From: Octopus sinensis
Taxonomy: Eukaryota
Assembly (NCBI RefSeq): GCF_006345805.1
Contig: NC_043003.1
Span: 59,086,001-59,150,000, forward strand
Direction: 5' to 3'
DNA: 64,000 bases
Below the pieces are notes generated by a model, which had not been told where the DNA came from, ran no database searches, and was given only the letters and a program-made list of their open reading frames with translations. How positions within the stretch are numbered: position 1 is the stretch's first letter; each line of letters starts with the position of its first letter. This document shows, one piece after another, positions 26,949 through 41,874 of the stretch. The translations under genes and the position numbers were made by a program.

Positions 26949-27060
26949 TAATAAATAAAATATATGCATACATAGAAACAATATGTACGTACCGACATCT
27001 ACATGTATATATACATGCATATATAAATATATATACGTACAGGACACCACATATATATAT

Positions 27061-27358
27061 AGGTAAATAATTCTTCGAACAGACGGTCAACAGCGACGCC
27101 TTCTTGGTTCGGCTTCTCTACATTGATAAGGGGCAAATACCCCGAAACTAATCTGTGGATGCCAGACCAGCAAGGGGAAGCGGCTAACCTCCCCTGTTCG
27201 AAGGTTATAATGGACAAAGGTTCGTGTGTCACACAGCTAACTAGAGGCGATGGCCTCTTGGAGCTAATCAACGGCAGCATTCGTCCTATTTTCCTGGACT
27301 GTCATGTTAGCGAGACGATAACCAGTACCGCTGCCGTAGACTCTTTTAGAGAGACTTA
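27061..27358 (+). mobile_element. ~300-bp GC-richer non-coding element after (TA)n carrying a hammerhead-like motif (pLTR- or retrozyme-like)
   Basis: Abrupt composition change, hammerhead motif at 27117-27159, 10-bp complementary pair 27073-27082/27194-27203. Confidence 0.5.
27117..27159 (+). ncRNA. Minimal type-I hammerhead ribozyme-like motif, U3:A8 core variant
   Basis: TCTACA-TTGATAA-GGGG(CAAATA)CCCC-GAAA-CTAA-TC-TGTGGA. Stem I is 6 bp with one GU, stem II is 4 GC bp, cleavage triplet AUC, one mismatch in the short stem III. Confidence 0.65.
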
Positions 27359-27379
27359 AAAATATTAATATTTGTTTTC

Positions 27380-28824: not shown

Positions 28825-30099
28825 AGTTGTGAGAAGCTGCACAATGCTGGATTTTACGGGAGGGCTGCAATCAGAAAACCACTACTTTCAAAAACAAACG
28901 TTGCAAAGTGTTTAGAGTGGAGTAAAACCCTACAGAATTGATCCCTAGAGCACGTGGAAGAATGTTATTTTCTCGGACGTGTCATCCTTTACCTTATTTC
29001 CGACCACCGGCCGAGTATACATGTGGAGACAGCCAAAAGACCCAGACTGCATTCTTCCAATTGTAAAACATGGAGGAGGATCTGTGATGATCTGGGGAGC
29101 TATATCTTGGAAATCCGCCGGCTCGCTGCTTTCCCGTCGTGGTAGAATTAATAGTGAAGACTATTTAAGCATTTTATCTGCGGAACTGTTTCTGGAGGGA
29201 AACGCAATCTTTCAGGATTATAATTCACACAGCTAAAGTTGTTACTGAATGACACGAGGAACATTCTAGTGAAGTCGAACATCTTATCTGGCCAGCACAG
29301 TCCCCAGATCTCAATATTATTGAACATTAAGGTGTCGATATCCTCCATTATCATCACTACAAGAAGTGAAGACTGTTTTAGCTGAAGAATGGAGAAAATA
29401 CCTTCAAGCTTTGTACGAATCCATACCTCGTAGAATTCAAGCTGTAATTACTGCCAGAGGCTGTCCTTTTTTTCAAGCCTAGCTAGGATCATGGGCCCGG
29501 TGTGCCGGTTTCTGTGGCGTATGTGTTCCCCCCAGCTAGACGGGACACCAGTCCATCGCAGCGTTACTCAAGAAACAGGAAGAGAAAGTGAGAGAAAGTT
29601 GTGGCGAAAGAGTACAACAGGGGTCGCCACCACCCCCTGCCGGAGCCTCGTAGAGCTTTTAGGTGTTTTCGCTCAATAAACACACACAACGCCCGGTCTG
29701 GGAATCGAAACCGCGGTCTTCCAACCTCGACTCCGCTGCCCTAACCACTGGGCCATTGCGCTTCCACAAATAAATGCGCCCTTTTAAAGCCTCGCCAGGC
29801 TCATGGGCCCGGTTTCCCGATTTCAATGGCGTATGTGTTCCCCAGCCGGACGGGACGCTAGTCCATCGCAGCGTTACTCATTTTTGCCAGCTGAGTGGAC
29901 TGGAGCAACGTGAGATGAACTATTTTGCTCAAGAACACAACGTGTCGCCCGGTCCAGGAATCGAAACCACAATCTTACGATCATGATGCTGACACCCTAA
30001 CCACTAAGCCACGCGCCTTCACTTAAGGCTGTCCTACCCCATATTAAAATAAATTTGTTTGAAATTTTAAGATGATTCCATTATTTTATCCAGCCCCTG
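28825..30099 (+). mobile_element. Tc1 transposon relic, 5'-truncated, interrupted by a SINE dimer
   Basis: LHNAGFYGRAAIRKPLLSK, NVIFSD, VKHGGGSVMIWGAIS, IFQD, WPAQSPDLNIIEH, SIPRRIQAVITARGCPTPY*. Right end ...ttatccagcccctg|TA at 30099. Confidence 0.85.
29468..30025 (-). mobile_element. Head-to-tail dimer of two group C tRNA-derived SINEs with a 10-bp TSD
   Basis: Two heads with A box (tggc..agtggttag) and B box (gtttcgattcc), different bodies and a shared tail. aggctgtcct is duplicated at 29458-29467 and 30026-30035. Confidence 0.85.
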
Positions 30100-39732: not shown

Positions 39733-39939
39733 CAGGGTGGCCCAAAAGTAGGTTTACAGTTATCGTGTAGGCACTTTAAATTTCTTTTAAAACATTTCAT
39801 TACATTTAAATTTCTAACTTGCAATTAAATAAATTAGCATAGAATAATGGTTTCATTTTTTTATAATTAAGGTCTAAACTGTTAATATATGAATGCGAAA
39901 GAGATAGTTGAATAACTGTAAACCTACTTTTGAGCCACC

Positions 39940-39942
<3 letters not shown>
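39733..39942. mobile_element. Tc1/mariner MITE, 210 bp
   Basis: 31-bp TIRs cagggtggcccaaaagtaggtttacagttat / ataactgtaaacctacttttgagccaccctg with one mismatch, TA flanks. Confidence 0.9.
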
Positions 39943-39982
<40 letters not shown>

Positions 39983-39989
39983 CAGAGCG

Positions 39990-40041
<52 letters not shown>

Positions 40042-40122
40042 GAAATAATAAATAAAGTTGGAAAAGGCACAAAAGTATGTTTTAGAAAATGTTTAATATT
40101 TTTGTTACAGTGAATGATTTAA

Positions 40123-40161
40123 AATATATCCGGTTTCGATGTGTCCATCTTATCAAATATT
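40123..40161 (-). ncRNA. Hammerhead-like motif, U3:A8 variant, left arm
   Basis: Minus strand AATAT-TTGATAA-GATG(GACA)CATC-GAAA-CCGG-AT-ATATT. Stems I and II are intact, but the U of the NUH triplet reads A. Confidence 0.5.
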
Positions 40162-40378
40162 AAAAATAATGTTTTAGGAAATCAAAGAGAAAAAAAAATT
40201 GGAGGTTAACACTTTGTACACATGTTTTAGTACATATGGAAATTTTACCCCGAACCTACATGGACAAAACATATATAAGAAGTGACTCCATAGTAAAATT
40301 TCACTATGAACAGAAACATGGGTACAAACTGTTAACCCTCAATTTTTTTTCAGCTTGACTTCGAATAAAATTCTTTTT

Positions 40379-40417
40379 AATATTTGATAAGATAGATACA
40401 TCGAAACCGATTATATT
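40379..40417 (+). ncRNA. Hammerhead-like motif, U3:A8 variant, right arm
   Basis: AATAT-TTGATAA-GAT(AGATAC)ATC-GAAA-CCGA-TT-ATATT. Stem I 5 bp, stem II 3 bp, triplet AUU, mismatch in stem III. Confidence 0.5.
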
Positions 40418-40542
40418 CTAAATCACTCACTGTAACAAAAATATTCAACATTCTGTTACATATACTTCTGTACCTTTTCCATCTTTACTTAATTTTAAAC
40501 CGTAATTTTTGATTTGTATTGACTCTTAACAGTTTTTTCAAC

Positions 40543-40603
<61 letters not shown>

Positions 40604-40610
40604 AGATATA

Positions 40611-40859
40611 CAGTAATCCCTCGCCATATCGCGGTTTATTATCTCAGCTTACGTCGATTCCTCCATAGTGTTGTTTTGCATTTATAATGAAATACACATA
40701 AATTATTTAGTTAAAATAAATATATACAATTATTATAGTTAAGCACTACAAATTATAAAAATAATAAAAAACAATATAAAGTACAATACTGTTTCTACTT
40801 CGCGTATTTTCACCTACCGCGTTTTTGGGAGCATAACACCCGCAACAGTCGGGGTATTA

Positions 40860-40862
<3 letters not shown>
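40611..40862. mobile_element. pogo/Tigger-type MITE
   Basis: TA|cagtaatccctcg ... cggggtattactg|TA inside (TA)n. Confidence 0.75.
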
Positions 40863-41502: not shown

Positions 41503-41874
41503 TTCTCTACTCTAGGCACAAGGCCCGAAATTTTTTTGGGAAGGGGTGAAGTCGATTAGATCGACCCCAGTACGCAACTGGTACTTATTTAATCGACCCC
41601 GAAAGGATGAAAGGCAAAGTCGATCTCGGCGGAATTTGAACTCAGAACGTAGCGACAGACGAAATACCTATTCCTTTACTACCCACAAGGGGCTAAACAC
41701 AGAGGGGACGAACAAGGACAGACAAAAGGATAAAGTCGATTATATCGACCTCAGTGCGCAACTGGTACTTATTTAATCGACCCCGAGAGGATGAAAGGCA
41801 AAGTCAACCTCGGCAGAATTTGAACTCAGAACGTAGCGGCAAACGAAGTACTGCTTAGTACTGCTCACCGCCTT
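41503..41874 (-). mobile_element. SINE group B, two-unit, nested in a group A remnant
   Basis: Two central units. Degenerate 16-bp TSD ctagtttcccttatac (41487-41502) / ctagtctcatttatac (41875-41890). Confidence 0.8.

What the first reader, a model, noticed from the sequence alone, without database searches (positions are those of the whole stretch)
40039..40542. Foldback element with two outward-facing U3:A8 hammerhead motifs
Seen: each inverted arm has AATAT-TTGATAA-stem II-GAAA-CCG(G/A)-(A/T)T-ATATT. The two copies are damaged at different positions, and their merged consensus AAUAU-UUGAUAA-GAUG GACA CAUC-GAAA-CCGG-UU-AUAUU is a complete minimal hammerhead with palindromic stem III (ACCGGU) and a GUU triplet. 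The stems are unrelated to the 27117 motif, so the U3:A8 core appears in two different families in 64 kb, which argues for a real variant rather than decay. Inference: a non-autonomous element whose transcripts from either strand carry a self-cleaving motif, or an inverted pLTR pair from a Penelope-like element.
Basis: partly seen in the sequence, partly recalled or inferred. Interest (0 to 1): 0.75.

Follow-up and report, generated by a model that had tools for sequence, protein, structure and literature searches.

The report
Decayed head-to-head Penelope retrotransposon ends
This hairpin is two back-to-back end fragments of an old Penelope-type jumping gene, likely made in one insertion; each carries a damaged copy of a predicted self-cutting RNA motif, and both the layout and the U3:A8 core variant are already published, so it is ordinary.

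Summary
The fold-back and both motifs are real. It is not a self-spreading foldback element. Of 40 family loci examined, 27 show one arm, and longer copies run on into reverse-transcriptase and C-terminal GIY-YIG remnants with a Neptune/Nematis-type linker. The 12 two-armed loci fold at different points; the right arm here has the one-sided ~44-nt tail typical of Penelope-like elements (PLEs). U3:A8 is the family state (38 of 48 arms) and the commonest core in this genome for one descriptor (4,967 of 5,285 matches), with stems that covary between families. Neither arm here is intact, and a transcript across the locus folds arm-on-arm (hammerhead stem probability about 0), so this copy is unlikely to cleave. 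Cervera and de la Pena 2014 already report U3-A8 in PLE hammerheads and opposite-strand pairs 100-700 bp apart. The scan has noted the same thing in other genomes and related structures in this one. One side lead: amplified subfamilies with U3:G8 or C3:A8 cores could test whether cleavage is needed for mobility.

The parts
40039..40248 (-). Inverted, 5'-truncated copy of the PLE 3' end (pLTR), ending at the family's short 3' end (no tail)
   Evidence: 6.2% from the family majority over 160 columns
40249..40542 (+). Direct copy of the PLE 3' end, starting about 41 nt further upstream than the left arm and ending at the long 3' end
   Evidence: colinear with single-arm copies L006, L004, L022, L013, L077; 10.6% from the majority
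40247..40250 (.). Head-to-head junction, with about 2 nt (AC) that fit either arm
   Evidence: sequence and alignments; a contig of another organism label spans it (X4 record 28, 40094-40509)
40249..40292 (+). Apparent spacer: element sequence present only in the right arm
40379..40417 (+). Type I minimal hammerhead motif, U3:A8 core, predicted cut after 40412; stem II pair and palindrome broken
40123..40161 (-). Second copy of the motif, predicted cut after 40128; U16.1 changed to A
40500..40542 (+). One-sided 3' tail of about 44 nt between the family's two preferred 3' ends
   Evidence: 23 long, 14 short, 11 other ends among 48 arms
39943..40038 (.). (TA)n/(GA)n microsatellite on the left flank; no target-site duplication can be read
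40543..40610 (.). (TA)n microsatellite on the right flank
27060..27373 (+). Separate family: part of a ~370-nt head-to-tail unit with its own U3:A8 hammerhead motif (U3 at 27123), retrozyme-like; no coding partner found in the loci examined

Best explanation
The 504-bp hairpin is a decayed, 5'-truncated insertion of a Penelope-like retrotransposon with a C-terminal endonuclease, made of one direct and one inverted copy of the element's 3' end, both likely copied in a single insertion event. Shown: family membership, single-arm majority, upstream RT and GIY-YIG remnants on the motif strand, two preferred 3' ends, variable fold points, microsatellite flanks, U3:A8 as the family state. Inferred: the element's protein primed DNA synthesis at two RNA sites about 44 nt apart (giving one tailed and one tail-less arm), both strands stopped early and joined head to head; the arms began identical and drifted apart without selection. 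Inferred: in the active ancestor the motif would fold as a type I hammerhead and cleave only as a dimer through its 6-nt palindrome. This copy most likely does nothing.
For: 93 matches in the genome. In 40 loci: 27 one arm, 12 outward pairs, 1 inward pair. RT/EN remnants lie upstream on the motif strand: L077 E=3e-78, L106 E=3e-61, L031 E=1e-35 against an open 811-aa sister protein that hits RVT_1 and whose relatives carry RT, PF26215 and in part GIY-YIG domains. Cys linker C-x4-C-x2-C seen in L034 and the sister protein. 5 of the 6 pairs whose two 3' ends are preserved have one long and one short end. Arm-arm divergence 16.9% matches the between-locus mean of 16.5%, with 0 shared non-majority bases. 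Among the first 100 genome matches, 22 of 26 close neighbours are outward-facing pairs. Literature describes the inverted copy, the one-sided tail and microsatellite bias, the tail as two RT start sites, and U3-A8 plus opposite-strand pairs.
Against: No intact ORF of this exact family was found; the three short fragments tested gave no Pfam hit, so domain calls rest on tblastn to a sister family. No shared private mutations prove single-event origin; two independent insertions side by side are not formally excluded. No target-site duplication is readable. No tree against named PLE references was built, so Neptune versus Nematis is open. Cleavage is untested. Copies were ranked by likeness to the query (40 of 279 candidates scored), which biases the counts toward two-armed and less diverged loci.
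Confidence: 0.92

Rival explanations
1. A non-autonomous foldback or MITE-like DNA element that moves as a two-armed unit and happens to carry hammerhead-like motifs.
For: Long inverted arms, matching 7-9 nt tips, TA-rich flanks, no ORF in the window copy.
Against: 27 of 40 loci are single-armed; none of the other 11 outward pairs shares this junction; arms are unequal by a tail; the arm continues into RT/EN sequence.
Confidence: 0.03
2. The locus is functional: transcripts from either strand carry a working self-cleaving motif.
For: The right arm keeps all 11 core positions; core and stems are less diverged than all flanks pooled (6.5% vs 10.8%, p=1e-6).
Against: Each arm has a disabling change; only 4 of 48 arms are fully intact; against the adjacent downstream 40 nt the difference vanishes (6.5% vs 7.6%, p=0.26); 1 compensatory double change in 464 pair cells; across the locus stems I and II have pairing probability about 0 on both strands; each strand holds one motif, so no cis dimer.
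Confidence: 0.03
3. The family motif is hammerhead-derived but no longer needs to cut; it is kept as a binding or dimerisation signal for the element's protein.
For: A near-identical tandem with open 811- and 923-aa frames carries U3:G8 and a 2-bp stem II (L095); 171 U:G and 54 C:A matches include repeated subfamily sequences; 12 of 18 young sister copies have stem I one base out of register; cleavage-dead mutants still insert in vitro in Anolis PAc.
Against: 5,060 of 5,285 matches keep a Watson-Crick 3:8 pair; stems I and II covary between families; the rest of the core is kept.
Confidence: 0.3

Closest known systems
Minimal type I hammerheads of metazoan PLEs, including the U3-A8 variant of Schistosoma mansoni Cercyon elements (Cervera and de la Pena 2014, PMC4209133; text parts 1-2 of 4 read, supplements not read)
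   Same: Type I motif in the pLTR, palindromic stem III region, U3-A8 core (about 1,300 hits there), mostly single copies from truncated elements, and pairs 100-700 bp apart on opposite strands.
   Different: Other host and family; stem II here is 4 bp with no extra base between positions 9 and 10.1; U3:A8 is the majority for the descriptor used here, and not the majority there (about 1,300 vs about 2,000).
C-terminal-EN PLEs of the Neptune/Nematis type (Craig et al. 2021, PMC8557442, passages; Arkhipova et al. 2013, PMC3846280, passages)
   Same: RT followed by CX2-5CxxC linker and GIY-YIG; 5' truncation; inverted truncated copy at the 5' end; one-sided tail; microsatellite targets.
   Different: Tail about 44 nt against 30-40 bp quoted; about 0.9 kb CA-rich 3' region between ORF and motif in this family; clade not placed on a tree.
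Poseidon PAc of Anolis (Frangieh et al. 2024, PMC11167929, passages)
   Same: Two preferred 3' ends defining a tail; hammerhead in the pLTR.
   Different: PAc has C3:G8 and was assayed; nothing was assayed here.
Animal non-LTR retrozymes (PMC7229834, passages; bioRxiv 10.64898/2026.07.22.740005, part 1 of 5)
   Same: Fits the 27117 family and the 360-nt C3:G8 family: short tandem units, one type I motif each.
   Different: The finding's own family is the end of a coding element, not a tandem unit.

Membership tests
Penelope-like element (EN+, C-terminal) | PLE-type RT followed by C-terminal GIY-YIG on the same strand as the pLTR | tested here: met
   Remnants in family copies L077, L106, L031; absent from the truncated window copy
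Penelope-like element (EN+, C-terminal) | Inverted 5'-truncated second copy with variable junction | tested here: met
   12 of 40 loci, different junctions
Penelope-like element (EN+, C-terminal) | Tail on one end only | tested here: met
   Two end classes about 44 nt apart; 5 of 6 pairs with both ends preserved are long/short
Penelope-like element (EN+, C-terminal) | Direct partial-tandem pLTR-ORF-pLTR in a full-length copy | tested here: inconclusive
   Seen in the sister family (L095); no full-length copy of this family found
Neptune clade | CX2-5CxxC linker between RT and EN (shared with Nematis) | tested here: met
   definition
Neptune clade | RT phylogeny groups with Neptune references | not tested
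   No named reference PLE sequences in hand
Type I minimal hammerhead | Core with Watson-Crick 3:8 pair, GAAA and NUH triplet | tested here: met
   Family majority meets it; U:A in 38 of 48 arms. The left arm here fails at U16.1
Type I minimal hammerhead | Stems I and II supported by covariation | tested here: met
   Between families, five different stem I and stem II sequences stay paired; within the family only 1 of 464 cells
Type I minimal hammerhead | Palindromic stem III allowing a dimer | tested here: met
   6-nt palindrome, duplex -8.3 kcal/mol; monomer stem III costs 6.5 kcal/mol. Broken in both window arms
Type I minimal hammerhead | Self-cleavage | not testable with these tools
   Needs an in vitro assay
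MITE / foldback DNA transposon | Fixed two-ended unit with terminal inverted repeats in most copies | tested here: not met
   27 of 40 loci single-armed; junctions differ
Non-LTR retrozyme | Head-to-tail tandem of a short non-coding unit | tested here: not met
   No direct tandem of the arm in 40 loci of this family; met for the separate 27117 family

The most novel reading that the evidence does not exclude
This genome holds a natural series of amplified PLE and retrozyme subfamilies with all four 3:8 core states (U:A, C:G, U:G, C:A), the mismatched ones still multiplying. If those are cleavage-dead, hammerhead catalysis is dispensable for Penelope mobility in vivo and the motif is kept for another job, such as RNA dimerisation or recognition by the element's protein.
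Probability: 0.25. Interest if true: 0.5.

Novelty: new member of a known kind. Interest (0 to 1): 0.16.

Why it matters
The locus itself is a fossil and matters little. The family adds one more case of a published variant. The only wider value is practical: hammerhead searches that demand C3:G8 would miss most motifs of this type in this genome (93 vs 4,967 for one descriptor), and the subfamilies with matched and mismatched cores give ready substrates for the open question of what PLE hammerheads do.

Tried and rejected
MITE/foldback transposon: rejected. Rfam scan: no hammerhead among the 150 rows shown of 274; the rows shown were low-complexity matches. Pfam on three short family fragments: no hit; on the sister protein only RVT_1 passed its cut-off. 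My first strict motif scan missed the young sister family's motif because it asked for a 4-bp stem II; found by eye. Sequencing runs: no RNA holder listed; contigs laid cannot show ends, strand or level, so RNA ends at the predicted sites were not tested. Selection after insertion: not supported against the adjacent flank. Link between this family and the 27117 family: no blastn match at E 1e-3; the 27117 unit had no match in 16 RT-bearing loci. Fixed fold point, a lead from an earlier scan note: 5' ends run from -10 to beyond -226 relative to U3, with a small cluster at -73 to -76 (7 arms in 5 of 39 loci); the window copy (-91/-132) is not in it. Lunse et al. 2017 is not held; only its title was seen in a reference list, so its data on dimer cleavage of such variants could bear on the cleavage question.

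Full report
Observation. The stretch 40039-40542 lies between (TA)n/(GA)n and (TA)n microsatellites and is a long imperfect inverted repeat: 154 nt at 82% and 58 nt at 84%, fold energy -178.6 kcal/mol, z -17.9, 0 of 100 shuffles. Each arm holds the motif described, pointing outward. The right motif has G>A at 40394 and 40410, the left has U16.1>A at 40129 and a changed loop base.

The family. A search of the window's genome (2.7 Gb) gave 93 matches from 40 scored of 279 candidates. I examined 40 distinct loci. 27 show one arm within about 1.5 kb, 12 show an outward-facing pair (11, one more) and 1 an inward pair. Fold points differ: 5' ends range from -10 to beyond -226 relative to U3, and no other pair shares the window's -91/-132 junction (39 loci; one was left out). 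The 44-nt 'spacer' is simply more element sequence, colinear with single-arm copies. The 3' ends fall into a long class (23 of 48 arms), a short class about 44 nt shorter (14) and others (11). The window copy has one of each, as do 5 of the 6 pairs with both ends preserved. A contig of another organism label spans the junction with 12 other letters and 4 gaps in 416 nt, which suggests that the insertion is old.

The coding partner. Upstream of the arm, on the motif strand, longer copies carry RT and GIY-YIG remnants. An RT fragment found 150 scored matches, many in long open frames. One of these sister elements has an open 811-aa frame that hits RVT_1 (E 1.6e-7) and has 559 relatives at E<=1e-30 with RT, PF26215 and in part GIY-YIG domains. 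Against it, family loci L077, L106 and L031 align over RT and EN at E 3e-78, 3e-61 and 1e-35, and the window itself has no hit. The C-x4-C-x2-C linker is intact in L034 and damaged in L077, L031 and L042. By the definition in Craig et al. 2021 this is a C-terminal-EN PLE of Neptune or Nematis type. I found no intact ORF of the exact family.

Is U3:A8 real? Within the family the 3:8 pair is U:A in 38 of 48 arms, U:G 3, U:U 3, gapped 4. Genome-wide exact counts for one descriptor (core, G..C stem II region, GAAACCGGT) were U:A 4,967, U:G 171, C:G 93, C:A 54, with reversed-pattern controls of 1, 0, 0 and 1. The descriptor fixes the palindrome and the stem II closing bases and misses other families, including the 27117 one. 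Parts not fixed by it covary between families: stem I is AAUAU/AUAUU, AAGAAAU/AUUUCUU, CAG/CUG, UCUACA/UGUAGA or CAUGCG/CGUGUG, and stem II GAUG/CAUC, GGUC/GACC, GGGG/CCCC or GAGG/CCUC. In the most frequent U:A family, 12 of 19 loci fetched have RT/EN sequence within 1.5 kb. One 360-nt tandem family holds all four 3:8 states at 89-96% identity. Outward pairs are routine: 22 of 26 neighbours within 6 kb among the first 100 matches listed, 10 of 12 within 1 kb.

Results against strict catalysis. U3:G8 with a 2-bp stem II sits in a 99.8% identical tandem with open frames (L095). C3:A8 recurs in tandem copies at several loci. Of 20 young sister copies, 18 showed the motif; 12 have stem I one base out of register, 5 in register, 1 otherwise damaged. 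Perreault et al. 2011 report that insertions near position 3 impaired one natural hammerhead.

Does this copy work? Only 4 of 48 arms are fully intact, neither of them here. Core plus stems differ from the majority at 83 of 1,272 non-CpG cells, the adjacent downstream flank at 142 of 1,871 (p=0.26), all flanks at 732 of 6,755 (p=1e-6); the pooled figure is inflated by upstream columns and by ranking on likeness to the query. Compensatory double changes: 1 of 464 cells. The two arms differ by 16.9%, as much as unrelated loci (16.5%). In a transcript across the locus, 36-37 of 39 motif bases pair with the other arm and hammerhead stems have probability about 0. The isolated majority motif forms stem II (0.9) and weakly stem I (0.3), and pairs through its palindrome in a dimer, as expected for this class.

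The 27117 motif. It belongs to a separate, abundant repeat (72 matches from 40 scored of 3,276 candidates): a ~370-nt head-to-tail unit with a 6-bp stem I, U3:A8, a different palindrome and a GUC triplet in 15 aligned loci. It is weakly similar to the C3:G8 tandem family (local score 98, best of 100 shuffles 58.5). It looks like a retrozyme; its mobiliser was not found.

Mechanism. Inferred from Frangieh et al. 2024 and Arkhipova et al. 2013: the PLE protein nicks a microsatellite, starts reverse transcription at two RNA sites that bound the tail, and two short cDNAs end up joined head to head. How the inversion forms is not settled in those passages. The hammerhead motif rides along as part of the pLTR. 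Cervera and de la Pena found low activity and only in dimers or stem-extended forms; Frangieh et al. found cleavage unnecessary for insertion in vitro.

What is known. Cervera and de la Pena 2014 describe U3-A8 in Cercyon PLEs (about 1,300 hits) and dual motifs 100-700 bp apart on opposite strands. Perreault et al. 2011 report natural U3-A8 covariation and cite earlier in vitro activity. A search for octopus plus Penelope plus hammerhead (host taxon is my guess) listed no paper on this family; that is one search only. Earlier scan notes reach the same reading in other genomes and for related repeats in this one; none matched this sequence. They are leads, not support.

Verdict. Real feature, known kind, dead copy. 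Interest 0.16.

Noticed in passing
window 39733-39942: Small element with ~31-nt near-perfect terminal inverted repeats (CAGGGTG...CACCCTG) in TA flanks; looks like a Tc1/mariner-type MITE (label recalled, not tested).
   Followed up: no
window 40611-40862: Second MITE-like element (CAGTA...TACTG ends) in TA flanks right after the finding.
   Followed up: no
window 28945-29236: Open stretch resembling a Tc1-like DDE transposase remnant (resemblance recalled).
   Followed up: no
L095 (G000:C1665:153000-162500): 99.8% identical tandem of a young PLE with open 811- and 923-aa frames whose hammerhead motif has U3:G8 and a 2-bp stem II.
   Followed up: partly
L108-L127: 12 of 18 young sister copies have stem I one base out of register, equivalent to an extra U before position 3.
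   Followed up: partly
L158-L184: 360-nt tandem, retrozyme-like family with C:G, C:A, U:A and U:G cores at 89-96% identity, often as outward-facing arrays.
   Followed up: partly
L093:489-1823, L095:5782-4304, L097:6262-4775: A 444-495-aa open stretch upstream of the RT frame in the young sister family, with no Pfam hit (L093 only); may be a long N-terminal part of the same ORF split by frameshifts.
   Followed up: no
L017, L027, L058, L068, L073: Seven arms begin at -73 to -76 relative to U3; possibly a preferred RNA 5' end of this family.
   Followed up: partly
window 41541-41851: Two direct copies of a 127-nt repeat, 90% alike, 184 nt apart.
   Followed up: no
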